The notes under the pieces are model-generated. The model saw only the letters and a list, made by a program, of their open reading frames with translations. It ran no database searches and was not told where the DNA came from. This document shows, piece after piece, positions 1 through 23,271 of a stretch of 32,000 bases of DNA. The number at the start of each line of letters is the position of its first letter. Position 1 is the stretch's first letter. The stretch is from Candidatus Saccharimonadota bacterium (GTDB lineage Bacteria > Patescibacteriota > Gracilibacteria > BD1-5 > UBA6164). The DNA lies in NCBI GenBank assembly GCA_965229705.1, contig OZ245922.1, positions 750,001-782,000 of the forward strand, read 5' to 3'. The position numbers and the translations under genes are program-made.

Positions 1-3000
1 TCCATTGAAAAAAGTATTTTGTGATGACTTTTGTACAAGAGGAGCTCATGAAATATGATTTTCTGATGTTTCTGGCGCTGATGAATAATTATCTTTATAA
101 TAGAGCGTCCCTGATGAAAAGTATAAAATATCTTCATCGCCATCATTATCCATATCTTTCATATATGGTTCTTCATCACCATCAAGAAAATCTGTATAGT
201 CAAAGAGCTGATAGTTTTTATCTTCTTCCACCACATATATTCACTCATACTGATAATCTGTCGCAGCATCTGGTCGACAACTGGCTCAGTGTGTTTCTCA
301 TCACTGTGTTCAAGATGAGTCTTGCGCAAAGAGTCTTCGCTCATCAATAAATTTTTCTATGGTTCTGGTTTCTTGCTTGAGCTCTGATTCGAGCTGTGTC
401 GTAAAATGGTCTTCACCATCAGCAAGGGCAATAATACTCTCTAAACTTCGGCTATTATATGGAGCAAGCTGATGTTTGTAAATATCGCGTTTGCTGTTCG
501 AAGATTGTGCTCTTATCTGGATAAAACTTTCTGGATTTTCTCTGTTTCTCAGACGCTCCTGAAGTTTTTGTATTTCTTGTATTTCATGAGTGAGAATATT
601 TTGTAAGAGGTCGAATTTTTCTTGATTATGATTTTGGAGGTCTTGTATCAGAGCATCTTCTATCACTGTTTCTCTGTCTCGAACAGATTTCCAGAGATGC
701 TGAAGTTCTTGAGCGCCAGAGTTTGGTTCTCACACACTTGCAATGAGTCCCTGTGATACATGAGTGATAAACTCATCATTATCCATATATATACTGCTGG
801 CATTTGAAAAGTTTTCTAAGAATGAAAGAATTTTTCGGGTAAGTATCCCAGCTATCATCGCTCATACTTCTTCCTTATAAGAGATATCAAACCCTTTTGT
901 ATTTATATTAATATCGCTTGGAGTAGCATTTCGCAGGTTAATATCGGAAGCTCTAATATCAAACATCTGAGTAATGTTATTGGTCATAGCATCAAGTGGA
1001 GCTGTGACTGATCTCATAATCTCGATAAGAAACTCTGTTTCAAACTCAAAATTTACATAGTTCGTAACTCTGATAGCAGAAATAGTAGAGTAGGAGAAAC
1101 TTGGAAATTGAATATCAAGAAAGTCTGTAGGAAGATATCCATTTCGTTCGGTGAGAAAGGCAATTTGATCTCATGCTCGCCACTCAGGTACAAAAGGAGA
1201 TCCTTTGATGAGACACATAGTCTTGATAATCAACTTCATAATATCTAGTACTATCTCCACTGAACCAAAAATCTGCGGTATTTGAGGTGGTGGTGGCAGG
1301 TGAGGGAGCTCTATTGCTGGAAGTACTGGGAGGTCTGGTAGCTCTGGAAGTGTATATATTGGAAGTAGAGGCAAAGATGGAAGAGTCGCTCAAAGTTCTG
1401 GAAATTCTGGCAAAAAGAGATCTGGAAGAGTTGGCAGAACAATAGGACGCAAACTGATATCAAAGTCTGGGAGATATATCGTCATTCATGCTCTGATATT
1501 ATGAAAATCGAGAATAATATCTGGCCAAGATGGAAACTCTATAATAGGAGGTGTTGGTAATACCACAGATATGAGCTGAAAAATAAAGTCTTGAAGATCT
1601 TGTCTCTCATTTTTACATTCTTGACACTCTGCCTCATAACCAATAAATACATCTATAAATAGTTGCCAAGACTTTAAAATGGCTTTTATCAAAATATAGA
1701 GTTCCACCCACGCCTTAAATCGCTGACCATTTTTCTTGAGCCAGTCTCACATGAGGTTTGAAAGGATTTCGATATTATAGAGAATTTGTCATAGCCATAC
1801 TTCTCGGATATTAATGAGACTCGCAAGACGCTCTGGAAATTTTTTATATTCTTCGAGTATCGCAATATTTTGTTCTAGAGATGATATGAGTGCTCATGAC
1901 TGGAGATAGAGCTTGTTACGTATATCATTTTCTCTTTCACATCTTTCTTGCTCTGCAGGAGTTTCTTTGTCACATGCCTTTCAAAGACTCCATTGCTCTG
2001 CTGCTCTTTGTCGTTCATCTTGCCATGACTGACTCGTTAGTTTCCAGTTCAGTATCGTGCGATTGAGCTCTGTTTCATCAATCCACGGAATATTTACCTG
2101 AATTGTTTCTGACTCTATATCAACGAGAGGAATATTTCCAACAAATTCATAAACTTCTTTAATTCCTGAAAGAGTTTCATTACTACTGTTTTTGAGTCCC
2201 TGACCTGTCTGAGCAAGAACCTGCAGCTCTATCATAGAGCACTGCAAGGCGTCACTTCCACTACAATCTAAAGAGTTTTTTTGTTCTTGGAGCTCTCTCT
2301 TCCGCTGAGCATCTGTCTGTCGCTGATCCTGAACACTTTGTTGTTGTATTTCAAAGACCTCTTGTAGTCCATCTCCAAATCAGGCAAAACTATAGTCAAA
2401 TATTCCTCAAAAATCTGGAAGTATCACATATATTTTTGGCAGATTTGTGAGCTTTGAAGTAATCTCATCAAGTTGCTGATCTACCCAGTTCATCATAAAT
2501 CCTGGGAAACCTCCAACAGCTTTATTTTGTACTTGAACAATATCTGAAAAATCTCGATTTCTTATTTTTTCTGTATCGAGGCTCACCGATATTTCAGAAA
2601 CTCCTTGTGATCATCAAATCTGAATAAAAGGTTTTGTCGGAAGATTGTATGTTCCTGAATTTTGAGAAATAAATTTGAGTTCATCGATATAATCTGCATA
2701 CATTTCTTCGGAAACTTCGTCAGTGCTCAGATATGTCAGGTAGTCATCCATAAAGTCTGATGAGAGCTCTGTAGGAGAGTCAAGACTCTCAGAGGACGAT
2801 CCCTGACAGTTTGCATGAAGAACTCAAAAATCTCAAGATCAGGGAAAGCCAAGTCCTCATGGATTTCCAAATCCCTCTTCACATCAAAACAGAGGTTGCG
2901 CGGTAACAATACAGTTCCCTCCTGGTACAAGAGGATATACTCACATAGGGTTGCTATTTCACGCGACAATCGCAGGTCATCAAAAACATACTGCGAGACC

Positions 3001-6000
3001 AAATCCTCCTGTCAGTGTTGGTGTGGCAAACATACGCACAAAGTTTGTTGATGCCCATGTTCATAGCGATCCTCATGCAGACGGAGGTCCACAAAAAGGT
3101 CATGGGACATATCACTGTGAATGCGCTGGGTATACTGATGGAAGACAACAAGGAGAAAGTCAGCAACTCGCCTGCATTCCAGTAAGAGCAGAAAAAATAG
3201 GAACACCCTCATTAACATGCAAACCATCTCCGATAGGTATTCCAAAAAGAGTTGGATCATTTCCCGGAGCAAGTGGTGCCCAGTTGAGTGGATTTGCAAA
3301 ACAACTTCCTCCACCAAATCCACAACTCAGTCACTGAATTAGCTCATCTATCCCTGCGCTGACTTCGTCTATTCCCTCATTGAGTTTTTCAAAAGATCAG
3401 AGTATTCCTCAAGAGCTACTTGGAGTATTATCCATCGAGTCATCACTATCCATGATACCATCGCCATCGCTATCTTGGAACATATCTACAGAAACTTGCT
3501 GGATATATTCGTTCAGCGCTTCTTGATCATCGCTTGGGATAATCGTTCCGTTTTGATCTGTTGTTAGTACTCCTTCGAGATAGTCAGGGATATCATTTTG
3601 ATTACTATCTTGAAATTGTGAGTATTCTTCTCACATATCATGTCCCTCCTCACAGCTTGTTTGTGACTGAGCAAGTGAATATTCTTTTGATCATTCTGAG
3701 CGGTATACTTCGGCATCGTCTCAACAGTTATACTCAGACTGACGTACCCGAACATCTCCATAGTTATCGTCCCCAACTTCTCCTGACTCAAAAAGTCATG
3801 CCTCTATATGAGCATAGGATACTGCGAGTACTTCAAGGTCTATTTCTATTGTCAGCTCTTCTCACGCGTCAAGAAAAAACTCATCTATAAGAATATCATA
3901 GCTTCATACACCTGTTTTGAGTTTTCGACTCTCACTCTCACGAGAACCATCAGTTCACAAAACATAAAAATCATTCCCTACCACCTGAAAATAGTCTGGG
4001 AGAGTATCAGCGTAAGCTATATTATCTTTTCTTTGTGAAGAAGTGTTTGTAAATGATACTTGATAACGAATCACTTCTCCTGTTTGTAATATCTCAGGAG
4101 TATCGTCGATAAATGTTTTTGTGATTTCCAGACCTACATTTTCTCCATACTGACTCAATAAAAAGGAACTCTCTTGCGTAGAAGTATTTAATCTTGGCTC
4201 GTATATGATATGATCATTGTATGCTTGTGCAAAGTCAGAAAACTCTCCATATCCCTGCTGAACAAACACCTCGTCTCATTGCTGATCCGTCTCCTGAGGC
4301 TTAAAGTTTGTCGGAGTATAAGGAAGTGACGCATAGCTGAGCGAAGCAAGAAGAGTATCATCAATACTTTGAATCACTGGAGTATCAATATTTGCGCTCG
4401 AACTTTGGAGAGCGTCTATATTTTCTTCTACCTCCTTGAGGTAGTCTTCAGCAAAATTACTAGTGATATTTGAGCTTTTTTTCGGTTGAACGAGTCCATC
4501 AAAATACACGGCTCCTCCATGTGAAATCGTCTCTTCTCAGAGACTGAGTTGATGCCCATCTCAAAGAAAAGATTTTTCAAAGCGTGGATTATCGGTATCT
4601 CACGCGCCGTAAAATATATATATCTCCCCAGCGTCATCAAGCGTTACAATATCACTTCTACCATCACGATCCATATCAAAAACTGTTGTTTGGATCACTG
4701 ATCCTTTGAGATCAAAATTTTCTTGAATACTGATTCTTTCTAGTTTTTTCCCATCATTATGAAACATCTCTGGAGTCCCTGTATCGCTCACAAAAAATAT
4801 ATCATCATAACTATCTCCAAAAAAATCTCCCGTTTGTAACATGTTCGATGATCCAGCATCAGCAGCGTAGGCATAATTTCTTTGTGCAAGATATCATCCA
4901 TCACCCGTATTTTCTATCAAAAAGAGAAACCCCTGTCTATCTATCATGAGTATGTCTTCATGATTATCAGCGTTATAATCAAAGGTTCGATAATCTATAA
5001 AATCTTCATCTTTTGCAAGAGTTGTTCACAGTGACCTATCAAAAGATTTTTCTGATCCGTCTTGAAAATACTGCTTTTGTGATGGAAGAGAGATAAGGGG
5101 ATCTCCAATATTTATAAGAGAAAAACTTGGAAATATTTGAGTTGCCTCTCAAAGAGAACTTCCAGAACTCAACTCCAAGATCATCGCATTTGCTTCATCC
5201 CAACCAATAGATTGTTCTTCTATAAATTCTCCTCCGAGATTTGCCTCATTATGAAAAATACTTTGTGTTGATGATGAAAGAGAAAAAGGATCTCGATAAA
5301 AGAAGGATACCCCATCTTGACGGTTTTCTCGCTCAGAATAATCTGACGAATACTGCTGGGATTGGAGATGAATGATAACCGTATCTTTTGATATATTGAG
5401 CTTTGTTTCGAGTACTCGCTGGTCTCGAGTAACATCATAAGAAACATCATCTTGTAGTTGTATTTGCATAACTTTTTCACCTCCATGTTCTACAAATAGT
5501 TGTAGTCACTCTCCTGAAAAACTCTTATCAAGACTCAAGGAAGCGCCATTTTTTCTATACATCTTACCACTTTCATCTATCTCAAAAAGCGTTTTTCATC
5601 ATGCGCTTTGCAAGAAATATTTCTCTGCTTCTTGGACTATCTCATAGTCTGATGCGAGCAGTGAAATATCTATCTCTGTCTCTTCTGACAAGAGATAGTA
5701 TACTCGCGCTATTTTTTCTCTGAGAATCGTATTTTGGATATCCAGTATGAGTCTTCCGCTATCATCTGTAAGCAATTGCACATCTATATCTTGAGTGAGG
5801 TCTTCAGAGCTATTGAGAGAGAGACCTCCATTTGGCAAAAAGCTCAAAGTTTCCTCTCACTTTTCACTCTCTGAGAGAAGCGTAGTAGCCCCAAGAGACA
5901 CATTGTCTCTCTCAAAAATCAATGCTCCTGCAAGATAATCTTCCTGGCTAATATCTCCATAAGGACCTCCAAAAAGTATAGAATACACACTATTATAGGA

Positions 6001-9000
6001 CTGCTCCTCGATACTCTGCTTATCCCAAAAGAAGAAAGTTTCTATCTCTCCTGCCCCCTCAGAGATTCACTGAAAATCAATATCTCCAATTTGGAAATCG
6101 ATATTTTCTAGTCACGCATCTGCTTGAAGTTCAAAAAATCATGTCCCCGAAACAGATCCTCCATACACTCGAAATTGAGAAATTCATTTTTCTACTACCT
6201 GGCTGGTATCAGAAAAAGAAATAATATTTTTTGAGTTTTCGTGTACTTGCGCTGATATAGTTGTGGTATTGTCATTGAAAACGGTATTGCCATACTTGTC
6301 TTTGAGCGTTGCTTCTACGAGCGAGACTTCTTGACTACTTGCCTGCATTTTTGTTTTCGAAGCAGCAATATCTATATATACCGGTTCTTCTGGAAGCAGG
6401 GTAATATTCTTGGTGAATATATCATTTCCTCACTCAAGATGAATTTCTAGAGGGATTTCTTCGCCTGCAGTGAATCCACTGATAAAAGAAATCTCTGCTT
6501 TTCCAGCCCTGACCTCTGTATAAGAATCTGTGATTTGGCCATATATACTTGGCAGAGAAGCGTATACTCGCGAATATACATCAGAATATATATTTCCATT
6601 TTCGTCCTGAAACTCTAAGCTATAAAGATACTCTTCTCCTCATACTTTTGCTGCTGCTCCTTTTTGAGTAAGAACAGGTTTGATATGTTCTACTGTTCGT
6701 ATATAGCGAGTTTTTTCATCTATCAATTTCCCTGAGAGATCATAGGCTCGAAACTGTATCGTGTTTTGTCAGGAGGTATCAGTGCTTTTCAAGCCCATAA
6801 GTTTGTATCATTCAATTATATGATACTCTATCTCTGCTGTATCATTTTCTTCAAAAACGAGACCTCCTCACTGGAGTGATATCTCAAGTTTATAGACATC
6901 ACTATTGGCAATATTTCCAAACCCATCTTCCAAAGTCAGAAAGTGTTGAGAAACATTTCCTCCTACCTCCATAATACTCGTTGAAAGACTTGGTTGAATC
7001 ACGCGCGCTTTCTCTGCTCTTATATCTATATTTTGAGAGGCAACAAATCCATCAGCATCTTCAATAATAAGTTCATATATTCATGACTCTTGCGCGGTAA
7101 ATATTTCTTTTGGCTGAGAAACATCTGTTTGTGATATACTGACTTCTTCAAAGATCTTCTCATCTCCTTTATAAAGACTGATACTGAGAGGATAGTTTAG
7201 TCAATTTTTGGCTCATGTAGGAGATATGTTTTGTACATCTACGAGCAGTTTTTCTGAAGAGTTTGAGAGTTGTGAGAGTTCAGAACCCCATTTCTCAAAC
7301 TCAGTATCTGAGCTGTGAATCACATAAATATTTGGACTTTCTGATACAAGAGCACTATTTCAAAAATCTGCGCCTTCTTCATCTGTGAAAGTGCGACTGG
7401 TAGTAGTAATCCTATCTCCTCGTACCTCTATCTTGAGCTCATTACTCTTGAGATTGAGCAGTGTTTGAGCAGTGCTATCTTTGATATCAAGCTCTGCTAT
7501 AAAGTATATATTTGCATCTATTGCTGGGGTAGAAATATAGTTTTGTGACTCTCATCTCATATTTCGTTGAGCTGCTGTAGAATAGCTAATATATTCTTGA
7601 GCTTGAGCTAGTGCTTGATCTCCGGAAAGATCTCTCTGATCTCTATCAAAAATGATTTTCGTATTGGTACCTGTGAGTTCTTGCGTGATATCTTGGGAGA
7701 TTTCCAATCTTTGTAGAAGATAGCGTGTAGAAGTCTGATTGTCAAAAAAGGCCTTTTCTCCATTTTTTTGATATATATCTGCCTGCAAAATTCCTGTGGT
7801 GTTATAGGAGTACTTTGACTGCCTACTTGAAAGTTTGAGAGAACCCCCCTGAAGTTTTTGCTCATAACAGTCCAAAACACCATTTTTGTTTTCATCTGTA
7901 CTACATTTGTCTATTTCTCGAGCTTGTTCGGGAGTAAAACTTGATCCTCGAAAATCATTTTTTGCGATCTGAATCGTTGGAGGAAGCATCTCCTCAAGCC
8001 AGCATATAATGGCAGAGGGCCACTGAGATATATCCACTCCTTCTGGAGGAGCGCAGGAGAAAACAGCTTCTTCTTGTTTTTGCTGCGGCGCTTCAGGTCT
8101 AGAGGCTCTCAGAGCTGTTTGTAAGGTAAGGTTTTTTTCTAAAGTGTTTGTGTATGGATGCGTTGCTTTTTTTTCTGGATCAAAATTGATATACATATTT
8201 TGTGCATCTCCTGGAGCTGAAAAATACGCTATTTCATAATTTGTTTTTGCTTTTGGAAGATGAAAATCATAGTCGTTGCCCTCAAACTCATTGCTCATAT
8301 AATTCTCAAAGAGGAACTGATACTTTGAAGAAACACTGGTGAGATTATTCCAAAATATCGCAAAAACTACTGTATCATAATAAGAAAGTTCTTTGCTTTG
8401 ACCATTTTGTGAAAAAACTTCTTGGGGTTTGTTTTGGAGAAATTTTGTGAGATCAACATCTGCCTCTGGAAATACGCCACTACTAAGAGACTCATACAGT
8501 GCTGTTTCTCACGGCGTGAGTATGGAAGGGTCTGCCTGACGAATATTTTGATTGATACTTTCTGAAACTTGTGAGAGATGCGCTGTGAGAAGTTCTCGGG
8601 CAGAGTCAATATCAACACCTTGCTGAGATGTATGTTTGAGAGAAAAAAGTTGGGGAAAATCTATTCTTTGATAACCCCTATTTTCTCCTCTTCCATTTGC
8701 TCAGATATAGTCGATATACCGCACACTATCTATCGGAAGAGCCGGCGTAAAACGAGACTGTGACTGAAGAGCAAACTCCTCATCTGTTGGTGATGTATGC
8801 AAAATATACGATGGAATAGTCTTATACTGCTTTACTCATTCTACATTTTCACAACTACATACAATTCTCTCATTATCACCTTGTCATGCTGTTCTACAGG
8901 TTTTATCGTGTTGTTTTGAAATAGTATTGGTATCTCCATTGATATTGAGCGTATAAGTGTTACATTCTCCACTTGTTCCATAAGCCTCTAAAAATCTTTC

Positions 9001-10863
9001 TTCATAATCTGGCGTATAGGTAGAAACATTGTTATCTGTTCGACACGACCATGAACCTGACGCCTCATTTCCAAGAACTGGAAGCTGAAAACCCTCAACA
9101 CAAAAATACTCTTCTCGCTCATTTTCATCTTTTCACACCGTTCGTGACTCTTGATACTGCCTATATGTTTCTACATACACTCCCGCATCATAACAATCGA
9201 GAGGAGAAGGTGTTTTTGAGAGATCACTGACAGACTTTGATCCCAGTATATCAAATAGTGGAACTATCGATGAAGAAAGAGAAGCCCCATTGAGTTCAAA
9301 ATCTCCATAGTTTTCACTCTCTCAAACTTTCAGATTGAGAGGAGTATTTCCTCACCAATATCATTTTGTAACTGGCAAAGCTCAACTATCTCCAGAGACA
9401 AATGTATCTCTACATAGTTCGAGGTCAGCTTCGGTATTCTGGACATTATACGCTCTGTTTGCCTCTACGAGATGATTTCCAGAACCTCGATATATACTAC
9501 AGTCAGCTGCTGACTCTAGTTCGTGAGCGATTTTTCCATAATAAAAAGTATGAGATCGTGAAATACATTTGGCTTGTCAGAGTTGCTGCTGTGTCTTTTC
9601 AAGGCGTATAGGAATGTTTCGTGAAAGTCCATTTTTGACTATTTGTGTAATCTCCTCTTCCAGTGCGTCACTGGCATCTTTGAGTATTTGCGTATGTATC
9701 TCATCCAACTGAGAAATCAAAAAAGCAGGGCTATCCATGTTTACTCTCCTTCCTCCCTGGTTGTATCTCCCAGCATTGTATACATTTTTTCGCATCTCTC
9801 AGAGAGAAGAAGCATTAAATGTTTCGAGAAATCTGTTACTGGTATTATTGGTAATATAACGAGACACCACATCTGATGAAGTGTTGGTATCTGGACCCGT
9901 ACTAAAGAGTTCTGGAGAAAGATCTATACCCGCTTTTTCTACCAGTCCCGATATATCCTCATCTTGAGTTCATAGAACATGATTTTTGACTTCTTCTGCA
10001 AGTTCTTGTGAGTATCTGTTATAGATCATATCATCTTTATGCTCACTATACATCTCGTATCCTGCGTATTTTTGATATTGAAGTGCCTCGTTTTCACGAA
10101 ATTGATCATAATAAAATACATAAGGTTCATAGTCTTTCCCCATTTCTCAGACTGTGCCATTGATGATATTTTTTTCTTCCGAAAAAAGTCCTTCTCCCGT
10201 ATAAAAATCATGATTTTTATCAAAATAGTTTTGAATTGCTTCTATATTTCCTTGTCTTGTTCCGGTATTTGGAGAAATAAATCCATGCCATATCTCTGCC
10301 TCAAAAGTATTTGTTGCTTGATCCGCTCTTTGGTATTTTTGATTTTCATGATCAAAGATAAACTGTTTTTCTACAAAATCTACATAGGGTAAAACACTCT
10401 TTGCCGAAGCTCCGTTATCAAATACGAGAGGAAGGGGAATATCCCCTATAAACACTGTTCCTACCAAACGCGACTCAAAGGAAACATCTTCGTGCACTTT
10501 GTATCACTGAAAATATAGCGCCTCACTGAGAGATGCAATATCATATACACTTGCTGTCTTTGGTGTTGGAAATATAGCAACCTTAGTATTTTCTCTATAA
10601 GACTGTATATCTCGAGAATAACGAACAATCTCTGTTTTGAGATCAGGATATATATCTTCCTCTACTATAAGGGCCACGAGGTCATGATATGGTTCATCCT
10701 CAGCGTAGAGTGAGCTGAAAAATACTTCAAAGGGAACTCGGAAAATCAAGCTCAAAAATATGCTCACTATCAATATGCATGAAAGTGTTTTTTGTAGCAG
10801 GGTTTTGGGAAAGAATTTCTTGAGCATCCTCGTGAAAATAAAGGTTTTTGAGAGAATACGCAT
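1..10863 (-). CDS. giant secreted/cell-surface multidomain protein; the C-terminus runs off the window start (at least 3,621 codons visible)
   Basis: One minus-strand frame joins track ORFs 10504..10863, 10147..10497, 9577..9795, 7552..8298, 5599..5847, 5149..5469, 4600..4842, 4276..4509, 3955..4269, 1981..2247, 1486..1707, 1171..1374, 310..666 and 46..234. I walked the frame triplet by triplet. Every interruption is TGA (plus-strand tca). The only in-frame TAA/TAG is tta at 10966-10968, upstream of the ATG at 10861-10863. The N-terminus has a hydrophobic signal/TM segment (TLSCILIVSIFLSLIF...SSLYA). Ig-like repeats appear around 5850-7550 (ATLKDKYGNTV, LTLEDGFGNIA, LEFQDENGNIY). FG-GAP/VCBS-like repeats appear around 4600-4990 (FDMDRDGRSDIVTLDDAGEIYIFYG). 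Other segments: a DUF11-like stretch (EVIRYQVSFTNTS), an acidic Ca-binding-like DSDGDGIMDSDDS at 3427-3477, and LP-rich repeats at 1280-1483. Confidence 0.85.
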
Positions 10864-11017
10864 TCTGTGTCTGAAATCAAGTAAGAAAGTGCTGGAAATA
10901 TCGAGGAGAAAGAAGTTTTTTGTATAAAAAATGAATGTCTTGAGTATAATGTGAAAAAGGTGTTTTTAAGAGAGTTCTGAGACATAAAAAATCTTGCGAA
11001 AGACTCGTCTCACATCC

Positions 11018-11146: not shown

Positions 11147-12469
11147 ATGCACATAATATCTTTTATAGAAATCTTTTGGTTCTTTTTTCTCTGGATCAAT
11201 ATATATATTGTTTGGAGAGATATAGCGTTTCAAAAGATAGAAAACGCATCTGTATGAATACTTTTTGCGCTATGATGTATATGATTTTTATTTGGAATAC
11301 TGAGTTTTTCATGGTGAGTATTGCTCTGGTTCCACCTTATCTTCTTGTGTATATTTCTCCTCTTTTACTTTGGTATTTGGTGAGCTGGAGATGCGAAATA
11401 TATACTTGTACTGAGTATATTTTTACCTGTAGGAAGTGTTTTTACACTTTTTTGAAATATTGCGATTGTTACCCTCCTGTATCTCATAGTTCATAGTATA
11501 CATCTGTACATCATCAAAAGTCTGTATGATCTCTCTCATGGGAAAAATCTCTTCATGAAAATATATGCCGACCTCAGATCAAAATTTGATGTATTTCTTG
11601 GAGGAGACGAAGCTCAAAAATATCAATGGAAAAACCTGATAGAAAAAATATTCCCCTTCCTTATAGGGTTTTTGATATTTTTTATCATCGTGCGGCTTGT
11701 ACGAATATATGCTCTATGAGAATGGCTCTGAAATGAAGAGGGGTGAAACAAGATCTGACTCCTACTTCAAATCGCAACAGAGTATACAAGTATGATTGTC
11801 TTGGGAATTATTATATGAATATATATCATCTATAAAGCATGCAAGAAAATCTTTTCCTCTATTTTTATATATGTATATACGCGTTTTTGAGTCTCTCAAG
11901 AAACAGCAAGATATATATGACTTATTGTTTCAAGTATCGGACTTATAGGTTTTATATCATACGAATATATCAGTGGCTCGGAAGTGATATGATGATACCT
12001 TGTCATGATATTCAGCGTATATATATTTCTCTATCTTACTGTGCGTCTTCTCATATATCTCCATTATGTTACTTTTCAACTTGCAGAAGTGGTATATAAG
12101 CGTATTTGAGAACTACAAGTTTGAGAGAGGGTAGACAAAGATTTTTTGATTCAAATTTTTGGAACACAAAAAGCCCTCTGATACGGAGAGAAAAAATGAA
12201 AATATGGTCCTGAACCTCGAAATTTTTTTACAAGTATTGAAAATCCTCTCTCTCAAGAAGCCGTTAAAGAGTTACAAAACATTTATCGACTCACAAATAA
12301 TTATCATATAAGACAAAAAACACCAGGATTTCAAAAAATAGAAGCTGTAAAAACCATCAAAAGTTTTGCTTTTTCTCCTTATATATTTTTCGGACTTATG
12401 CTGACCTTGATATATGATGATGTCCTCAAGAGTATTGTGGAGTTTTTTATCCACCTTATCACATCCTAA
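11147..12469 (+). CDS. A24-family (prepilin/preflagellin) aspartic peptidase-like polytopic membrane protein with a long C-terminal extension (440 aa)
   Basis: The plus frame is open from 10988 to the TAA at 12467-12469 once TGA is sense; the first ATG is at 11147. Two A24-type Asp motifs are present: VWRDIAFQKIEN (Asp codon 11219-11221) and GIW-G(TGA)-AGDAKYILVLSIF (GxGDxK, Asp codon 11390-11392). Many hydrophobic segments occur throughout. Confidence 0.7.
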
Positions 12470-13410
12470 AATACACTCCGTATTTCTTCTATCACTTCTT
12501 TTTTTCTCTCAGGAGATACCGTTTTAGGGTGCACTTTGATATAGTGGTAGTATTTATCATACTCATATATTCCTGTACATATATCATTCCATCCACAATC
12601 TTTGCATTCAGGAAGTTTGGTATGTTCCCAGTCTCTTTGTCTGATAGATTCTCGTTCATCAAGAAAATGTACAATTCTCTCTTCTTCTTTTACTATTTTT
12701 CGTGTTTCTGTAGATGACCATTCATAGCCTTCGATGAAGCAAAGAGGGACCTTCTCTGCTCTAAATGTTCTTCCAGTAGATGTGAGAAAGGCCATGGCCT
12801 CTCTCAGTGAGTCCGAAAACTCTCAAAAATCAGGAAGTGTACTCCAAGCAGTATCTGTTTTACGCATCATGAGAGGGTCTAGATTGTTCCAAACAAAGTG
12901 CTCTATAGGAGGAAAATGACGAACAAGAAACTTCACTGTTGCATCTAAATGATGCTGATTGTAATGGTTCATTACCGTATTGATTTGTACTCGTATACCG
13001 AGGTTAAGAGCGTGCGTAATCGACTTCATCAGGCGTTTCCACGATCCTGGTGTATCTGTCAAAAAATCATGTATTTGTTCATAACAGGAAAAAACAGAAA
13101 AATGTATAAGTTCCAGTCAAGCATCAGCAAGACGCTTTGTATATTCATAACTTGAACAGAGCATCCCATTGGAAATGATTCTATTGGACATACCAATATC
13201 AAGAGCGTACTCTATCCAGGCTGGTAGGTCTTTTGAAAGAGTTGGTTCTCCTCCTGTAAATATCACACCATGATAGCCTCTCTTTTTAAAATCATCTATG
13301 AGCTCAATACCTTTTTCATAGCTAATACTCTTCCCATTACTTGGATTACTACAAAAATGACACTGATTGTTACAATGCCTATTTACTTGTATGTATCAAA
13401 TATTTGCCAT
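12466..13410 (-). CDS. radical SAM enzyme with a Cys-rich (SPASM/twitch-like) C-terminus, 314 aa (rSAM-1; HxsC candidate)
   Basis: Track ORFs 12466..12795 and 12823..13062 plus the stretch up to the ATG at 13408-13410 are joined in one frame by TGA codons. The N-terminus is MANIGYIQVNRHCNNQCHFC, with CxxxCxxC at 13351-13374. Also present: FTGGEPTL and a C-terminal CKDCGWNDICTGIY. The stop is TAG at 12466-12468. Confidence 0.85.
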
Positions 13411-14959
13411 GAGTAAAGAAAAAAATACCATTTTAAACAGTTTCAGTATAATTCCTCTTATGAATCATCAAAAAAATATTTGAAAAAAAGCAGAGAGTAT
13501 ATCCTTGCTGATACATCTGGGGTATCAAACCCCTCAAACAATATTTATTGATACAGAAAGAAATCTACAAGATCAAATCCAAGACATATTTGAGTCGGAA
13601 AACTACATTGTAAGACCAAGTTTTTATGATGAAGATACTCCTCAAAACTCTCAGGCATGAAAATATAGATCATATTGACCAATAAGTCTCAAGGAACTTC
13701 AAATATTTTTTGAGAAAAATCTGAAGGATATATGCTCTATTTTTTGATGAGAAGAACAAGATTTATGAAGTATCATCCTGCAAGAATTTATCAGCACAAA
13801 TACTTATGGTGTTGGATTTTCTCGAAATCCTGAAAACATACTCTTCTCTTGATGATATGAACTTCATTCATCTTTCAATGGTATTACATCAGGGAAAAAA
13901 TGAGATCAAAAAGGATCATTGTTTCTCGATTATAAAATTCAAAAAACCATTAAACGCTTAGAAATTTCTTTTTGATATCCTCAAGATGTTGAGTTTGCCG
14001 TAAAAAAATGACATATATATATCCTCCAAAGTAGAAATATCACTAGTGGGATAACATCTTTTTCGGAATATGCAAAATTTCAAAAAATGAGCGGAATATT
14101 TCAAAACTTGGATAACGGTGAGTTTTGAAGTGTAGCATATTTTTGAGTATCTTTTTTAGAAAACCTATATCATACACTTATCATTTCGTGAAATATCTTC
14201 TGAAAAAGAAAAAAAAATGGAAAAAAGTATTTAGAGCAAGATATACAAAAATTTCAAAATCTTTATGGCAAATACCTAAGATGGAAAAAAATACACTCTA
14301 TAGGAAGCTTTTTTCTCTTTTTTCAAAAATATGATGTAGATGTGCTCTCAACACTTTATAAAAACTGTGCCTATCAATTTTCTCCCACTATAGCAACACG
14401 CTTTCCTGAGATACAAAAAATATGAAACAATTATAATCTAAAAACTTCTTTGTTATTGCGAAGTGAGTTCCTTAAATATAAGGCTTTTCAGGCTTTAGAG
14501 CCGGTAAAAAAACGTATTCTTCAGGAAAATATATTTTGAGAGGATATAAACTATCTATCATATAAAGAATATCAAGATACATCTATCCATCATGAAGAAA
14601 TTATCAAGCAGAGAAAAAAATCTCATGCTATTCATAAGACATATAGCTCTTATATAGTGATGATTCAATGAAAAATCCAAAAAAAATATAACACATTTCT
14701 ATCAGACAATACAGGTAAAATATGGATATATAGATGAAAGCTTACATGAAAAAAAGTCAGAGATATCAAACAGATAGATATAAAATCAAAAAAGAAGTAT
14801 CTTTTGGAAATACAAAGTCTGGATGGAGATATTTCCAGGTACTTGCCCCGTTTATGATGAGTAATTTTGATAAATGGAAATATGTATTCTCACCACTGCA
14901 TACTTTTGCGAGAACATAGAATACCAAGTTACCTTATTTCTGAAGACTGTGAAAGATAG
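13409..14959 (+). CDS. PEP/pyruvate-binding plus PEP-utilising mobile (swivelling His) domain protein, PEP synthase / rifampicin-phosphotransferase-like, 516 aa
   Basis: I checked the plus frame codon by codon from the ATG at 13409 to the TAG at 14957-14959. It contains more than 25 in-frame TGA codons and no TAA/TAG. PPDK_N-like motifs: VRPSFYDED, GVGFSRNPEN, YPQDVEFAVKKGHIYILQSRNITS. The C-terminal mobile domain reads GGVILINGNMYSHHCILLREHRIPSY, matching the family pattern G..tSHaAI.aRe.giP. Confidence 0.75.
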
Positions 14960-15656
14960 GTTCAATAATTTGACGACATTTCCCTGTATCAAGTCAAGTA
15001 TAAAGTCTTAAATAATCTCATTTCTTGGCAGCTTTAGAGTATGAAATACCAGTGTGGATATAGTATGAGAGAGTGATTCTGCATAGGTGCTTTACATCTT
15101 CATCTGCATAGTAGAAATCTTGTGAGGCAAAGATATTATTGAGAATATATGGAGAGGTTTCATTCAAAGTATTATCTACTTTTGTATCAAACTCATTTAT
15201 AAGCCTCTGAAATTGTATATGAAGTGAGTAAGCTGAAAAAACTAAAGGAACATTAAGTAACAAGATTAAAGCAAGCAAAAAGTAGGTTAAGAGGTATATT
15301 CAAAACTTATACACAAACAATAGACTTAGGACAACCCCAATAAGTAGATAAAAACTTATATTTTGATAATCTAACACCGTATCAAAAAACTGTATATTCA
15401 TAAGTCCCAGTTGATGAGGTCATACGAATAAAATAAGTGCAAGATAGGATAATACAACACTCATACTCAATAATATAAATAAGGTTATTCTCCATCTCAA
15501 AAGTAAACATACAAAAGACGAAGCAAAAACTCCTATTGATATATATACAAGTATAGCAATCTCATATATAAATGGTATCACTCAAAGAAAAGGAATAGCA
15601 TATGTAGTGTTATAGCTAAGAAAAAAAATAAAAATAGAAAGAATAATATATTTCAT
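14934..15656 (-). CDS. hypothetical polytopic integral membrane protein, 240 aa
   Basis: The minus frame runs from the ATG at 15654-15656 to the TAA at 14934-14936 and extends track ORF 15018..15278 through TGA codons. The N-terminal two-thirds is almost entirely hydrophobic helices (MKYIILSIFIFFLSY..., LLALILLLNVPLVF). I recognised no family. Confidence 0.6.
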
Positions 15657-15680
15657 AGGAGTTTATAAAAAATAATAACA

Positions 15681-16961
15681 TTATAATTTTTCTATCGGTT
15701 CAAGTATTTGAAATCCATAGCTTCGCAGAAAGTTTATATGAATTCCTTCACAGTTTTTAAAGTATTTACAAGAGTTGCACCTCAAAGATTTCTTTCGATA
15801 CAGCGTATCTATATACCTGTAAGTATAATCCGAGAGAGAATCCTCTGCTTTGACATCATGATAGTTTTGATATTTTCCTGATCCTCATAAACATTTTGGA
15901 ATATTTATGAGTTTGCCATGCTCTTTTTGTTTTTTCTTCAAAAATGCTCGAAACTCCTCCGGGCTTTCTCCATATGACTCATATACCTCACTTGGAAAAT
16001 TTTTTCATTCTACAATGTAGGCTTTCTCAAAAACTTGCTCCGACTCTTTGAGGTTTTTTAAAAATCAGTGACAAAACTGATGCTGAAAACATACCTCACA
16101 TGCGTCCCCAAAACAGCCTGGTTTTTCTTGTCATTTCGAAAGGATAAATCTCTCAAACATCCTATAGGCTTCTCCCATGATCTCCGACTTAAACTTGCGG
16201 GGGTCTTGTATTAGGTCTTCATATCCTTCAAACGCCTCAGCAGGAAATCTATTAGTCCACATATACATGCCCTCTACTCGTGAAAGACTCCAGGTTCGTA
16301 TAAGCTCATCCTTATAGTCCGCAATCTCATAAAAAAGTTTTTCTTTATTTTGCCTAAATCCTCTCCCAAAAGGAATAATCTGAAGAATATCAAACTCATA
16401 TACTCACAATCGCATAAAAAATGAAATAATATCAGGAAGGTAACGAACATTTGGCTTACAAACTACGATATCAATATTGACAATAACTTCGGGAAAAAAT
16501 TTTCGTATATATATCAATCCTGTAAGAGCTCTCTGAAAAGATCATGGTGCGTCTACGAGATAATCATGGAGTGCAGGGGTATGTCCATGAAAAGAAAATG
16601 TTACTTCCTCGAGTCCTGCGTCCACGACTTTTTTACAAAAGTCATAACTACGGAACATATTTCCATTTGTGACCGTTTGTACTCTATCATACCCAAGTTC
16701 CTTTGCGTAGCGTATATATTGTGGAAACTTTGGGTTGATACTTGCCTCTCCTCAAGAAATGATGACTCGGTTTTCATAACCTGCCTTGTACCCGTCTTTG
16801 ATTTCTTTTTTTACTTGTTCTTCTGAAGGAAATGTCCCATTTTGAGCATCGCTATCAAGACAAAAAACACATTTAACATTACAAGCAGAGGCAATGCGTA
16901 CCCAAATGCGATTTTGTTTTGTTGTGTGTTCTTTGGAGAGAAGATTTTCTTTATAAACCAT
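15681..16961 (-). CDS. radical SAM enzyme with two C-terminal Cys clusters (SPASM-like), about 426 aa (rSAM-2)
   Basis: I walked the frame from 16985 down to the TAA at 15681-15683; all interruptions are TGA. Motifs: ACNVKCVFC (16860-16883), VIIS-G(TGA 16752-16754)-EASINP for the GGE motif, and C-terminal CFGDACEVCFQHQFC and CNSCKYFKNCEG. The start is either the ATG at 16959-16961 or the TTG at 16983-16985. Confidence 0.85.
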
Positions 16962-18258: not shown

Positions 18259-18264
18259 GAAACA

Positions 18265-19425: not shown

Positions 19426-19450
19426 ATATTGTTTATAAAAAAGTAAAGTT

Positions 19451-19554
19451 ATGGAAGATATGACAAAAAAATCTTCAATCCACTCTGGCTCTATCGAGCC
19501 ACCTCTCCTTTGAAAAAGGAGAGAAAAAAGGACTTTCTCAGAGCTTCCTTATAA
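19451..19554 (-). repeat. copy 2 of the ~105-bp element (inverted; one arm degenerate)
   Basis: The reverse complement reads TTATAAGGAAGCTCTGAGAAAGTCCTTTTTTCTCTCCTTTTTCAAAGGAGAGGTGGCTCGATAGAGCCAGAGTGGATTGAAGATTTTTTTGTCAT.... Its right end overlaps the last codons and the TAA of rSAM-3 (19549-19551). Confidence 0.75.
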
Positions 19555-20520: not shown

Positions 20521-20593
20521 ACTTTTTTCACTAAAATATTCCCTATAAGTGTACGAAGTTTACTCTCATCTCTATATTTTTTGAATTTTTTAT

Positions 20594-20622
20594 TTGACAA
20601 AATATATCTATATGTATATAAA
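20594..20622 (+). promoter_or_regulatory. putative sigma70-type promoter for the lipoprotein gene
   Basis: TTGACA at 20594-20599, a 17-nt spacer, then TATAAA at 20617-20622, preceded by a T-rich TTTTATTTGACA context. It lies inside a ~60-bp block (20541-20599) that is duplicated at 24254-24311. Confidence 0.45.
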
Positions 20623-20661
20623 TACTCCTGCAGAATAATTTATTCTTTAAATATTTTTATT

Positions 20662-21087: not shown

Positions 21088-21095
21088 AGTGTCAC

Positions 21096-21202: not shown

Positions 21203-21284
21203 AAAATATTTATCATACCCCTACATTGAGGTGGAGATTTTATATTATCGCTAAAGTCATTGCGTATATATAAAAGAAATCTTG

Positions 21285-21812: not shown

Positions 21813-21821
21813 GAGGTATTG

Positions 21822-23216: not shown

Positions 23217-23271
23217 TTTTTTAAAGCGAAAAAATCATATTTTTTCGGTATTTATACCTAAAATGCTCTCT

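What the first reader, a model, noticed from the sequence alone, without database searches (positions are those of the whole stretch)
1..10863. Giant surface protein (more than 3,600 aa, still incomplete) read through dozens of UGA codons
A single frame of 10.8 kb is interrupted only by UGA. It encodes, from the N-terminus:
- a signal/TM anchor;
- a region whose layout resembles the non-catalytic N-terminal fold of gingipain-type C25 peptidases (LVALIVEEDIYPDLKTEIVRYSRDIQ...LVGTVFIGDIPLP...EIWHGFISPNTG...IEAIQNYFDKNHDFY; tentative);
- Cys-rich segments;
- about five Ig-like repeats;
- FG-GAP/VCBS repeats;
- a DUF11-like domain;
- acidic Ca-binding-like motifs;
- a long, poorly recognisable C-terminal third.

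Giant adhesin-like proteins are the expected host-attachment machinery of episymbiotic CPR bacteria. This one takes up a third of the window and sits next to the peptide-modification locus.
Basis: partly seen in the sequence, partly recalled or inferred. Interest (0 to 1): 0.65.

Follow-up and report, generated by a model that had tools for sequence, protein, structure and literature searches.

The report
Giant conserved envelope protein, Gracilibacteria
This is a real, single gene for a roughly 4,250-residue exported protein of a Gracilibacteria-type bacterium that reads UGA as glycine; it belongs to a clade-wide but uncharacterised family of giant cell-surface proteins, so it is a sound but unsurprising find whose function is still inferred.

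Summary
On the minus strand, window 1-10965 is one frame with 82 in-frame TGA and no TAA or TAG. An ATG lies at 10863, with another possible start at 10827. TGA encodes Gly (code 25).

The public copy of the protein continues 628 residues beyond the window, giving about 4,249 aa. It is collinear over its full length, at 31-47% identity, with relatives of very uniform length (median 4,310 aa). These relatives occur in at least 106 species genomes, with one match in each of three complete genomes.

More distant, equally collinear giants occur in Peregrinibacteria, Altimarinota and Absconditabacterales. Many of them carry S-layer-homology wall anchors.

- **Supported:** signal-like N-terminus, Cys-rich segments, FG-GAP/VCBS repeats, at least two Ig-like domains, acidic motifs.
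- **Borderline:** the DUF11-like domain.
- **Not supported:** any gingipain/C25 relationship, and any conserved link to the neighbouring radical-SAM locus.

The "unrecognisable" C-terminal third contains the most conserved part of the protein, an ~800-aa core. It matches no family or solved structure and defeated AlphaFold2.

An extracellular location is well supported. A role in host attachment is plausible but untested, and the conservation pattern fits a structural envelope or contact machine equally well.

The parts
1..10863 (-). Giant ORF: the first 3,621 of about 4,249 codons, read with TGA = Gly. The frame is open up to 10965. The last 628 codons lie beyond the window start.
   Evidence: frame, 82 TGA, no TAA/TAG. 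(P0001 gives the missing C-terminus). (TGA = Gly).
10702..10863 (-). N-terminal signal peptide or signal anchor (residues 1-54). There is an alternative start ATG at 10825-10827 (M13). The hydrophobic core is residues 27-45. A possible cleavage site follows ...SSLYA.
   Evidence: Kyte-Doolittle 2.32, the only strong hydrophobic segment. The consensus N-terminus of relatives, M.Y.KFQKF.S.FLIF.LLFS.TFR.PF....FA, appears. Cleavage is inferred, not tested.
10219..10689 (-). Conserved N-terminal alpha/beta domain (residues 59-215; motifs LVALIVEED and EIWHG). It has a three-layer, flavodoxin-like topology and unknown function.
   Evidence: AlphaFold2, pLDDT mostly about 55-85 over this stretch. (about 44-53% identity to relatives). 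(no significant structural or profile match, and no gingipain).
7834..10701 (-). N-terminal conserved region (residues 55-1010). It includes a variable, indel-rich, Cys-rich stretch at residues 470-760 (window 8584-9456) and conserved blocks at residues 800-1000.
5914..7866 (-). Ig-like beta-sandwich region (residues 1000-1650). Two clearly related units lie at residues 1263-1340 (window 6844-7077) and 1478-1565 (window 6169-6432). Segments at residues 1000-1160 and 1360-1490 match these units weakly.
   Evidence: segment profiles, i-E 1.7e-8. (Glyco_hydro2_C5, 18.8 bits, below the cut-off). (Invasin_D3 in 6 of 11 relatives and Glyco_hydro2_C5 in 5 of 11). (no BLAST-level self-similarity).
4474..5070 (-). 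FG-GAP/VCBS repeats (residues 1932-2130), probably part of a beta-propeller.
   Evidence: PF13517, 38.7 bits against a cut-off of 26.9, residues 2013-2073. (11 of 11 relatives). (PDB 8w20, E 5.9e-5). (units at 1932-1980 and 2049-2084).
3664..4131 (-). DUF11/TIGR01451-like domain (residues 2245-2400), borderline.
   Evidence: 17.3 bits against 24.6. (relative P0009: TIGR01451, 22.6 bits against 24). (JGI names two relatives 'TIGR01451 family').
3439..3474 (-). Acidic DSDGDGIMDSDD motif (residues 2464-2475), resembling a calcium-binding site.
   Evidence: Read from the sequence. TSP3_bac repeats are significant only in a Peregrinibacteria relative. Calcium binding is inferred.
2800..3333 (-). 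Gly/Cys/Pro-rich conserved module (residues 2511-2688; GLSCGFGGGSC...NWAPLAPGNDP...TPTLTGG...PGGNCIV). It has about 10 conserved Cys. Many of its Gly codons are TGA.
   Evidence: 62% identity; invariant columns. (AlphaFold2 pLDDT below 40, so the fold is unknown).
964..2196 (-). The most conserved core (residues 2890-3300). It has long helices, the motifs RFKAWVELY and ECxxCKNERQD, a Pro-rich (LPxLP)n...PPPP stretch, and PEWRAGDQIAF. It is shared with the giants of Peregrinibacteria, Altimarinota and Absconditabacterales.
   Evidence: 57-69% identity. (only the long helices are modelled with confidence). (678 clusters; second-tier giants match profile positions about 390-800). (collinear matches, domain i-E 1e-22 to 1e-60). 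(no match to solved structures).
214..876 (-). Poorly conserved linker after the core (residues 3330-3550). By eye the sequence looks helical; this was not modelled.
   Evidence: 19-33% identity. Sequence.
1..159 (-). A further FG-GAP-like unit with the acidic motif DMDNDGDEDILY (residues 3569-3621), cut by the window edge. About 630 more residues follow outside the window.
   Evidence: the FG-GAP segment profile hits 3569-3611.. (the C-terminus from P0001 includes DSDGDGDPRND).

Best explanation
The gene encodes a single, Sec-exported, very acidic protein of about 4,250 residues that stays on the outside of the cell of a Gracilibacteria (BD1-5) bacterium. It works as a long envelope-attached fibre involved in contact with another cell.

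**Shown**
- It is one continuous gene, translated with UGA as glycine.
- It has a signal-like N-terminus.
- It has FG-GAP/VCBS repeats, at least two Ig-like domains and conserved cysteines.
- It is the orthologue of a giant protein that gave one match per complete genome and is found across Gracilibacteria. Collinear relatives occur in Peregrinibacteria, Altimarinota and Absconditabacterales, and many of those carry S-layer-homology wall anchors.

**Inferred**
- After export, the N-terminal two thirds project outward. This part comprises the alpha/beta domain, the Cys-rich segments, the Ig-like modules, the beta-propeller and the DUF11-like domain. It binds ligands on a host or partner cell, stiffened by disulfides and calcium.
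- The ~800-residue conserved core (Gly/Cys-rich module, long helices, polyproline stretch) is the invariant 'chassis'. It anchors or oligomerises the fibre within the cell wall.
- The protein may be O-glycosylated by the Wzy_C-type enzyme and glycosyltransferase that neighbour it in many relatives.
For: - **Real single gene:** 3,655 codons without TAA/TAG. It is collinear over 99% of its length, at 31-47% identity, with 4,100-4,400-aa relatives. The ORF is intact under code 25 in nearly all of the 79 relatives' loci that have enough sequence.
- **Code 25:**
- **Export:** the only strong hydrophobic segment is N-terminal and is preceded by Lys/Arg. No convincing later transmembrane segment was found.
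- **Extracellular domain types:** FG-GAP_3 above the cut-off; Ig-like units; conserved Cys.
- **Orthologues elsewhere:** collinear giants in Peregrinibacteria, Altimarinota and Absconditabacterales. SLH and TSP3_bac domains lie near the C-terminus of the Peregrinibacteria ones, so the C-terminus is also outside the cell.
- **Expression:** VCBS-repeat proteins of Gracilibacteria genomes WB 25_16 and 25_26 were detected by metaproteomics (PMC11452946). Those two genomes carry family members (L040 and L034).
- **Literature:** giant surface proteins are described in Vampirococcus, Strigamonas and Peribacter and are proposed to mediate host contact (PMC8080830, PMC13059738, PMC4736985).
- **Neighbourhood:** Wzy_C and GT1 occur downstream in 27-30 loci, and T4SS_pilin genes in 17-18, of about 50 loci with enough flank.
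Against: - No binding, localisation or host is known for this organism.
- The protein lacks the hallmarks of classical giant adhesins. It has no tandem near-identical repeats, a fixed length, one match per complete genome, and its highest conservation in a core that has no adhesin-like domain.
- No wall anchor (SLH, LPXTG or similar) was detected in the Gracilibacteria proteins themselves. How the protein is retained is therefore unknown.
- The Ig-like and DUF11 assignments are below the curated cut-offs in the window protein.
- The AlphaFold2 models are weak (pLDDT 59.7 and 45.2).
- The identity of the metaproteome VCBS proteins with this family is inferred from genome names, not checked by sequence.
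Confidence: 0.5

Rival explanations
1. It is a structural envelope protein: an S-layer or S-layer-associated scaffold, or a wall-spanning stalk. It is needed for the architecture of the cell surface in this whole clade, and is not a host-specific adhesin.
For: - One match in each of three complete genomes.
- Narrow length distribution: 114 of 120 relatives are 4,000-4,450 aa.
- Collinear conservation over the full length, with a 57-69% identical core.
- Orthologues across Gracilibacteria, Peregrinibacteria, Altimarinota and Absconditabacterales.
- SLH domains in the standard-code orthologues.
- Neighbouring Wzy_C and GT1 genes, and an unidentified polytopic membrane protein, as in surface-glycan or S-layer glycosylation loci. 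The analogy is from general knowledge and was not tested.
Against: - No SLH domain in the Gracilibacteria proteins.
- 4,250 aa is far larger than known S-layer proteins (general knowledge).
- FG-GAP and Ig-like modules are more typical of binding proteins.
- No abundance data are available.
Confidence: 0.3
2. It is a component of a contact-dependent transfer or feeding apparatus that works with the VirB2-like 'T4SS_pilin' proteins and a VirD4-like ATPase. It would be a giant extracellular adaptor or channel-forming protein, with the conserved Gly-rich and helical core inserting into or bridging to the partner's envelope.
For: - Three T4SS_pilin genes lie 5-6 kb downstream in 17-18 of about 50 relatives' loci.
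- Two larger T4SS_pilin-like genes and a VirD4-like gene (T4SS-DNA_transf) lie upstream in two loci.
- The core has weakly hydrophobic Gly-rich and amphipathic helical segments.
- Predatory relatives consume host cytoplasm (PMC8080830).
Against: - The pilin genes are separated from the giant gene by oppositely oriented glycan genes.
- No VirB4 or VirB6 gene is adjacent.
- No T4SS family matches the protein at E<=1; the only related hit is a non-significant TraE match in one relative, E 0.19.
- The window itself shows no T4SS genes.
- T4SS_pilin genes are numerous in CPR genomes, so proximity may be chance (general knowledge).
Confidence: 0.12
3. It is a surface-tethered enzyme. The strongly conserved N-terminal alpha/beta domain would be a hydrolase, and the rest of the protein would serve as a stalk.
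For: - The N-terminal 50-300 residues are among the best conserved (44-53% identity). They hold many invariant charged residues and a His-Gly after a strand.
- AlphaFold2 gives a confident alpha/beta sandwich.
Against: - No Peptidase_C25 or any other enzyme family in the window protein at E<=0.1, or in 11 relatives at E<=1.
- No gingipain in the PDB profile search at E<=10.
- Foldseek's best E-value is 0.11, to generic flavodoxin-like folds, with no gingipain among the 50 best matches.
- No cysteine lies between the signal peptide and about residue 455, so a Cys-His dyad is impossible in this domain.
Confidence: 0.06
4. It is not a real single gene, but an assembly chimera, a fusion of unrelated genes, or a decayed pseudogene.
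For: Only the general risk with metagenome assemblies. The window ends inside the gene.
Against: - Full-length collinearity with more than 100 independent assemblies, including three complete genomes.
- The absence of TAA/TAG has a chance probability of about 1e-81.
- TGA sits at conserved Gly columns.
Confidence: 0.02

Closest known systems
Unnamed family annotated by NCBI as 'VCBS repeat-containing protein [Candidatus Gracilibacteria bacterium]' (for example P0009, 4,377 aa, GCA_010119145.1; P0038, 4,265 aa)
   Same: - Collinear over 99% of the window protein at 31-47% identity.
- Same length and the same FG-GAP_3 hit.
- Same invariant core motifs (CKNERQD, PEWRAGDQIAF, NWAPLAPG).
- Same genetic code.
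   Different: Only ordinary divergence. The upstream neighbours differ: the window has a radical-SAM locus and an A24-like membrane protein, where relatives have AspRS, TauE and MscL. The family has no experimentally studied member.
'S-layer homology domain-containing protein' giants of Candidatus Peregrinibacteria, Altimarinota and the Patescibacteria group (for example MBI2464194.1 = P0207, 4,699 aa; P0197, 4,246 aa)
   Same: - Same order of modules: N-terminal alpha/beta domain, Ig-like, FG-GAP, core, C-terminal beta-rich part.
- Full-sequence E-values of 1e-70 to 1e-136 against the window protein.
   Different: - They use the standard code.
- They carry SLH, and often TSP3_bac and FecR, domains near the C-terminus. 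These are not detected in the Gracilibacteria proteins.
- In the best-aligned pairs, pairwise identity over the aligned parts is only about 23-29%.
Giant membrane or surface proteins described in Absconditicoccaceae (Vampirococcus lugosii, longest protein VAMP_16_20, 4,163 aa; Strigamonas) and in Peribacter riflensis
   Same: - Same kind of organism (CPR, episymbiotic or predatory).
- Same size class, predicted surface location, and integrin/FG-GAP and DUF11 domains.
- The authors propose a role in host recognition.
- An Absconditabacterales protein (P0360, 4,900 aa) is a collinear relative of the window protein.
   Different: Whether VAMP_16_20 itself is an orthologue could not be checked, because no sequence is held. 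The published descriptions are lists of domains, not a defined family.
Integrin-like FG-GAP/VCBS beta-propeller adhesins and invasin/intimin-type Ig (Big_1) arrays
   Same: FG-GAP_3 repeats above the Pfam cut-off. Weak Invasin_D3 and Glyco_hydro2_C5 Ig-like hits.
   Different: These modules make up less than a quarter of the protein. There is no intimin/invasin beta-barrel anchor and no C-type lectin tip. The rest of the protein has no counterpart.
Repeat-rich giant adhesins exported by type I secretion (LapA, SiiE, MpIBP type)
   Same: Size, acidity, Ig-like modules and calcium-binding-like acidic motifs.
   Different: - No tandem near-identical repeats.
- The secretion signal is N-terminal and Sec-type, not C-terminal.
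- No RTX family hit in Pfam.
- The length is fixed rather than variable.
Gingipain-type peptidase C25
   Same: Only a generic beta-alpha-beta layout, with a hydrophobic strand followed by Gly-Asp-Ile-Pro and a His-Gly.
   Different: No sequence, profile or structural match, and no catalytic cysteine.

Membership tests
Gracilibacteria ~4,300-aa 'VCBS repeat-containing protein' family (unnamed) | Full-length collinear homology to family members | tested here: met
   99% query coverage at 31-47% identity, with bit scores of 1,757-3,428 for the 119 listed relatives. Low gap fraction along the whole length.
Gracilibacteria ~4,300-aa 'VCBS repeat-containing protein' family (unnamed) | Length of about 4,100-4,450 aa | tested here: met
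   4,249 aa from the ATG at 10863, or 4,217 aa as P0001. The family median is 4,310 aa.
Gracilibacteria ~4,300-aa 'VCBS repeat-containing protein' family (unnamed) | Invariant core motifs (GLSCGFGGGSC, NWAPLAPG, RFKAWVELY, CxxCKNERxD, PEWRAGDQIAF) | tested here: met
   All are present in the window protein at residues 2511-3236. They are invariant columns.
Genetic code 25 (UGA = Gly; Gracilibacteria/Absconditabacteria) | In-frame TGA at positions that are Gly in homologues, not Trp | tested here: met
   TypA compared with E. coli BipA. The 82 TGA columns. TGA and GGN alternate in the (HGS)n repeat. No tRNA gene lies in the window, so the suppressor tRNA could not be confirmed.
FG-GAP / VCBS repeat proteins (Pfam PF13517) | Match above the Pfam gathering score | tested here: met
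   38.7 bits against a cut-off of 26.9, in two stretches. Found in 11 of 11 relatives.
FG-GAP / VCBS repeat proteins (Pfam PF13517) | Seven repeats forming a closed beta-propeller | tested here: inconclusive
   Only three or four units are recognisable in residues 1932-2130, plus one at 3569-3611. This region was not modelled.
Peptidase C25 (gingipain) / clan CD | Match to Peptidase_C25 or Propeptide_C25 profiles, or to gingipain sequences | tested here: not met
   No hit in the window protein at E<=0.1 or in 11 relatives at E<=1. No gingipain in the PDB profile search at E<=10.
Peptidase C25 (gingipain) / clan CD | Catalytic His-Cys dyad | tested here: not met
   A conserved His-Gly (EIWHG, residues 190-194) exists. 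No Cys occurs in the mature protein before about residue 455.
Peptidase C25 (gingipain) / clan CD | Structural similarity of the N-terminal domain to gingipain | tested here: not met
   Foldseek against the PDB gave a best E-value of 0.11, to lumazine synthase or flavodoxin-type folds. No gingipain is among the 50 best matches. Caveat: the model's mean pLDDT is 59.7, and mostly about 55-85 for this domain.
DUF11 / TIGR01451 repeat proteins | Match above the curated cut-off | tested here: inconclusive
   Window protein: 17.3 bits against 24.6. Relative P0009: 18.6 against 24.6 (Pfam) and 22.6 against 24 (TIGR01451).
Bacterial Ig-like domains (Big_1 / Invasin_D3 / Glyco_hydro2_C5 type) | Profile match and internal repetition | tested here: inconclusive
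   Window protein: Glyco_hydro2_C5, 18.8 bits against 32. Invasin_D3 in 6 of 11 relatives, best E 8.9e-5. Two units are related at i-E 1.7e-8. A Peregrinibacteria relative has a significant hit at 65 bits.
SLH-anchored S-layer or S-layer-associated proteins | S-layer homology (PF00395) domains | tested here: not met
   None in the window protein or in 11 Gracilibacteria relatives. Present in the Peregrinibacteria and Altimarinota orthologues.
T1SS repeat adhesins (RTX / Bap / LapA type) | Tandem near-identical repeats, RTX nonapeptides and a C-terminal secretion signal | tested here: not met
   No self-similarity by BLAST at E<=1. No RTX or HemolysinCabind hit. The signal is N-terminal.
Type IV secretion components (VirB2/VirB6/TraG and others) | Profile match to any T4SS family | tested here: not met
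   No T4SS family at E<=1 in 11 relatives, apart from a non-significant TraE hit (E 0.19) in one. Only the neighbouring genes are T4SS_pilin or VirD4-like.

The most novel reading that the evidence does not exclude
The protein is not a variable adhesin. It is the clade-defining core of a previously undescribed cell-surface machine shared by Gracilibacteria, Absconditabacteria and Peregrinibacteria.
- It would be built around an ~800-residue module: a Gly/Cys-rich part, very long helices, a polyproline stretch and a PEWRAGDQIAF block. This module has a new fold.
- The module would span or organise the wall.
- It would act together with neighbouring glycosylation enzymes and VirB2-like pilins to make the physical bridge to the host cell through which these bacteria attach and feed.
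Probability: 0.2. Interest if true: 0.75.

Novelty: new member of a known kind. Interest (0 to 1): 0.42.

Why it matters
Gracilibacteria are uncultivated. How they hold on to, or feed from, other cells is unknown.

This gene takes up about 1.3% of a 1.0-Mb contig, probably most or all of the genome. It is kept at a fixed length and gave one match in each of three complete genomes. It recurs across at least 106 species, and more distantly across sister lineages that include the cultured predators Vampirococcus and Absconditicoccus. Such investment by a reduced genome implies an essential surface function. That makes the family an obvious first target for localisation, structure determination and antibody or proteomic work.

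There is also a practical lesson. Of the 120 best matches in the public protein collection, about 108 carry Trp at TGA codons, up to 7% of residues. That mistranslation degrades any structure prediction or domain search done on those sequences.

The finding itself, a giant surface protein in a CPR bacterium, is what specialists expect. It is already annotated, without a function.

Tried and rejected
- **Extending the contig.**
  - The exact look-up of P0001 is not on record.
  - A 60-nt exact scan of metagenome contigs with the window start found nothing.
The closest of those to the window by blastn showed only about 65-77% nucleotide identity.
  - The C-terminus is therefore known only as the code-4 translation in P0001. 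Its TGA and TGG positions cannot be told apart.
Tile N was therefore modelled from the P0001 substring (14 Trp in place of Gly) and tile C from relative P0009. Alignments were limited to 19 rows by size limits.
- **Tile C model.** Mean pLDDT 45.2. Its Foldseek search gave only noise, E>=1.
- **Tile N Foldseek.** Nothing below E 0.1.
- **Profile searches against the PDB.** The whole family hit only an FG-GAP esterase. Tile N gave nothing relevant.
- **The word-indexed homologue search with the core profile** saturated, probably on Pro-rich words, and returned only 8 fragments. The exhaustive representative search was used instead.
- **Self-BLAST for repeats** found none, so segment profiles were needed.
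- **Organism names for second-tier relatives.** Only 1 of 20 looked up carried an organism name.
- **Considered and rejected:** polymorphic toxin or Rhs (the C-terminus is conserved, with no toxin or RHS hit); TGA = Trp, code 4; later transmembrane anchors (only marginal hydrophobicity, and extracellular-type domains lie on both sides).

Full report
**1. The observation**

The window is 35.6% G+C. On the minus strand, one frame of window 1-10965 contains no TAA or TAG and 82 TGA. It runs off the window start. The other five frames of the same stretch contain 43-106 TAA/TAG. From the base composition, TAA+TAG should occur at about 0.05 per codon, so 3,655 codons without one has a chance probability near 1e-81 (my arithmetic).

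An ATG at 10863 gives 3,621 codons in the window. A second ATG at 10827 aligns slightly better with the N-termini of relatives.

**2. Genetic code**

Three independent lines show TGA = Gly.
- In the neighbouring TypA/BipA gene (27325-29127 +), the five TGA align with G, S, Q, G and G of E. coli BipA, and never with W.
- At the 82 TGA columns of the giant gene, 365 of 729 aligned residues of ten correctly translated relatives are Gly, against a 7% background. Only one is Trp. True TGG columns are Trp in the relatives.
- In a small ORF (21285-21812, minus strand) with a perfect (His-Gly-Ser)n repeat, TGA alternates with GGA, GGG and GGT at the Gly position.

TGA supplies 31% of the Gly codons of the giant gene. 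No tRNA or Rfam match lies in the window.

**3. Completeness and reality of the gene**

A search of 5.8 billion proteins returned the window's own protein (P0001). It is 4,217 aa, lies on a 1,006,762-bp contig, starts at an internal GTG, and has every TGA translated as Trp. It extends 628 residues beyond the window, giving 4,249 aa from the ATG at 10863.

That search found 199 relatives at E<=1e-5.
- The 119 listed relatives are almost all 4,000-4,450 aa (114 of the 120 listed proteins; median 4,310).
- Where one alignment spans the whole protein, it covers 99% of the query. Identities are 31-47%.
- Named relatives are [quoted passage not shown].
- An alignment with ten of them is collinear, with few gaps.

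A scan of one genome per species (GTDB) found the core in 106 genomes, and 79 loci were kept. With TGA read as sense, the ORF is intact in nearly all loci that have enough sequence. Each of three complete genomes (CP060226.1, CP042461.1, OY782392.1) gave one match.

Chimera, gene fusion and pseudogene are therefore excluded for practical purposes.

**4. Anatomy**

Residue numbers count from the ATG at 10863.
- **Residues 1-54:** Lys/Arg-rich, then the only strongly hydrophobic segment (27-45, Kyte-Doolittle 2.3), then ...SSLYA. This is a Sec-type signal peptide or signal anchor. The relatives' consensus is the same.
- **Residues 59-215:** a conserved alpha/beta domain. AlphaFold2 pLDDT is mostly about 55-85 and identity is 44-53%.
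- **Residues 470-760:** a variable, indel-rich, Cys-rich stretch.
- **Residues about 1000-1650:** Ig-like. BLAST sees no internal repeats. Family segment profiles relate residues 1263-1340 to 1478-1565 at i-E 1.7e-8, with weaker links to two to four more segments. Pfam gives sub-threshold Glyco_hydro2_C5 in the window protein, and Invasin_D3 (6 of 11) and Glyco_hydro2_C5 (5 of 11) in relatives.
- **Residues 1932-2130:** FG-GAP/VCBS, the only hit above a curated cut-off (38.7 against 26.9 bits). The only PDB sequence match is a secreted esterase, to this region (8w20).
- **Residues 2245-2400:** DUF11/TIGR01451-like, below the cut-off.
- **Residues 2464-2475 and 3570-3581:** acidic DxDxDG motifs.
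- **Residues 2511-2688:** a Gly/Cys/Pro-rich module at 62% identity.
- **Residues 2890-3300:** the best conserved part (57-69% identity). It has long helices, a CxxCKNERxD motif, a polyproline (LPxLP)n...PPPP stretch and PEWRAGDQIAF.
- **After the core:** a poorly conserved linker, then a further FG-GAP-like unit, cut by the window edge. About 630 residues follow outside the window.

The protein is very acidic, with a net charge of about -346. No convincing internal transmembrane segment exists.

**5. The gingipain idea**

It falls in the confident alpha/beta domain. Every test of a C25 relationship failed:
- no Peptidase_C25 or Propeptide_C25 hit in the window protein at E<=0.1 or in 11 relatives at E<=1;
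- no gingipain in a PDB profile search at E<=10;
- Foldseek against the PDB gave a best E of 0.11, to lumazine-synthase or flavodoxin-type sandwiches, with no gingipain among the 50 best matches;
- the mature protein has no cysteine before about residue 455, so a His-Cys dyad is impossible.

The domain is best described as a conserved alpha/beta domain of unknown function.

**6. The core and the wider superfamily**

AlphaFold2 on the core (relative P0009, 19-row alignment) gave a mean pLDDT of 45. Only the long helices were confident. Foldseek on that model returned noise.

An exhaustive HMMER search of 1.84 billion cluster representatives with a core profile found 678 clusters (E<=1e-3), 339 of them at E<=1e-30.
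- The first tier is the Gracilibacteria family.
- A second tier consists of 3,700-6,066-aa proteins with normal Trp content (standard code). They match profile positions about 390-800.

One of them is MBI2464194.1, [quoted passage not shown]. Two that were scanned carry SLH and FG-GAP_3, and one of these also has TSP3_bac, Glyco_hydro2_C5 and FecR.

A search from one of these listed Peregrinibacteria, "Patescibacteria group", Altimarinota and Absconditabacterales giants. It also listed large ENA clusters of about 4,850 aa.

Direct comparison shows that the window protein matches these collinearly. The N-terminal domain, the FG-GAP region, the core, and in some cases the Gly/Cys module or the C-terminal part all align. 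Full-sequence E-values are 1e-42 to 1e-136.

The gene is thus the Gracilibacteria orthologue of a giant protein conserved across this whole CPR clade. The SLH and TSP3 domains near the C-terminus of the standard-code orthologues place both ends of the protein outside the cell.

**7. Surroundings**

In the window, the gene's start faces a divergent 440-aa polytopic membrane protein (11147-12469 +). That protein has a prepilin-peptidase A24-like N-terminus (25.4 bits, cut-off 26.5). Beyond it lies a locus with four radical-SAM genes, a PPDK_N-like gene, a TPR lipoprotein and the (HGS)n peptide.

The adjacency is not conserved. Three relatives' loci with 10 kb of upstream flank, and a fourth with 3.3 kb, have no radical-SAM genes there.

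The recurring neighbours lie downstream of the gene's end, which is outside the window. The order is:
- one or two unidentified membrane proteins;
- Wzy_C;
- a GT1 glycosyltransferase, convergent;
- a small TrbC-like protein;
- three T4SS_pilin genes;
- a metallopeptidase-like protein;
- RNase J.

Wzy_C and GT1 are found in 27-30 loci, and the pilins in 17-18, of about 50 loci with at least 7 kb of flank. Two loci also have T4SS_pilin-like and VirD4-like genes upstream.

**8. Literature**
- Giant membrane or surface proteins are reported for Vampirococcus. Its ten longest proteins are 1,392-4,163 aa, and the longest, VAMP_16_20, is "hypothetical".
- They are also reported for Strigamonas and other Absconditicoccaceae and for Peribacter. 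In each case the authors propose that they mediate host contact.
- In a groundwater study, VCBS-repeat proteins of Gracilibacteria genomes WB 25_16 and 25_26 were detected in the metaproteome. Those two genomes carry family members (L040 and L034). The family is therefore very probably expressed, although I could not check sequence identity.

No paper I found defines or studies this family as such.

**9. What it most likely is and does**

*Shown:* a real, single gene for an exported giant protein with extracellular-type modules. It is orthologous across the clade.

*Inferred:* it is an envelope-attached fibre. Its distal modules bind a partner cell, and its conserved core anchors or assembles it.

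I give this 0.5. The main rival (0.3) is a structural envelope or S-layer-associated scaffold. The arguments for it are one match per complete genome, fixed length, absence of tandem repeats, a highly conserved non-adhesin core, and SLH domains in orthologues.

A role in a T4SS-pilin-associated contact apparatus (0.12) rests on synteny only. A tethered enzyme (0.06) rests only on conservation of the N-terminal domain. An artefact is effectively excluded.

**10. Novelty and score**

This is a new member of a known, annotated but uncharacterised kind. What this analysis adds:
- the correct strand, genetic code and full length;
- rejection of the gingipain and peptide-locus links;
- the finding that the "unrecognisable" third is the conserved heart of a superfamily spanning Gracilibacteria, Absconditabacterales, Altimarinota and Peregrinibacteria;
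- the finding that this core resists current structure prediction with shallow alignments.

Interest is moderate, at 0.42. It is a good target, not a surprise.

Noticed in passing
window 21285-21812 (-), with neighbours 12466-23279: A 175-aa ORF has an N-terminal leader-like part and ends in about 14 perfect His-Gly-Ser repeats (Pfam sees 'Collagen'). It sits among four radical-SAM genes, a PPDK_N-like gene and a TPR lipoprotein, which looks like a RiPP-type peptide-modification locus. In the repeat, TGA and GGN alternate at the Gly position.
   Followed up: partly
window 11147-12469 (+): A 440-aa polytopic membrane protein whose first ~110 residues match the type IV prepilin peptidase family A24, just under the cut-off (25.4 against 26.5 bits). 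It is transcribed divergently from the giant gene and has 19 in-frame TGA.
   Followed up: partly
window 27325-29127 (+) versus L005 16989-18935, L013 16552-18348, L027 and L036: TypA/BipA lies 16 kb upstream of the giant gene's start in the window, in divergent orientation. In several of the closest relatives it lies 0.1-1.6 kb downstream of the gene's end. The region has been rearranged in this genome, or the radical-SAM block was inserted.
   Followed up: partly
relatives' loci L013, L005, L066, L019, L021, L043 (giant ORFs): The share of Gly codons written as TGA in this one gene ranges from about 8% (L013, 39% GC) through 31% (the window, 36% GC) to 84% (L043, 23% GC). It tracks AT-richness.
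   Followed up: partly
P0001 and most of P0002-P0120: Public protein predictions for this family are mostly mistranslated. About 108 of the 120 best hits carry 2-7% Trp, and as little as 0.6% Gly, because TGA was read as Trp (code 4). Only about 12 NCBI entries use code 25. P0001 also starts at an internal GTG.
   Followed up: yes
L001 23188-32419; L002 23287-32798; L004 23043-32903, and about 27 further loci: A conserved block lies downstream of the giant gene in relatives. It holds unidentified polytopic membrane protein(s), Wzy_C, a GT1 glycosyltransferase, a small TrbC-like protein, three T4SS_pilin genes, a ~290-aa metallopeptidase-like protein and RNase J.
   Followed up: partly
L023 and L024 (contig CALDZW010000037.1, 27,956 bp): The same contig was returned twice, in opposite orientations, with identical match coordinates. 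The contig appears to be an inverted duplication, probably an assembly artefact.
   Followed up: no
P0093 (5,272 aa), P0106 (5,282 aa); L051, L054, L073 (about 5,000 aa): A few family members are about 700-950 residues longer. In P0093 the extra sequence is a low-complexity stretch, helical by eye, inserted after about residue 800.
   Followed up: no
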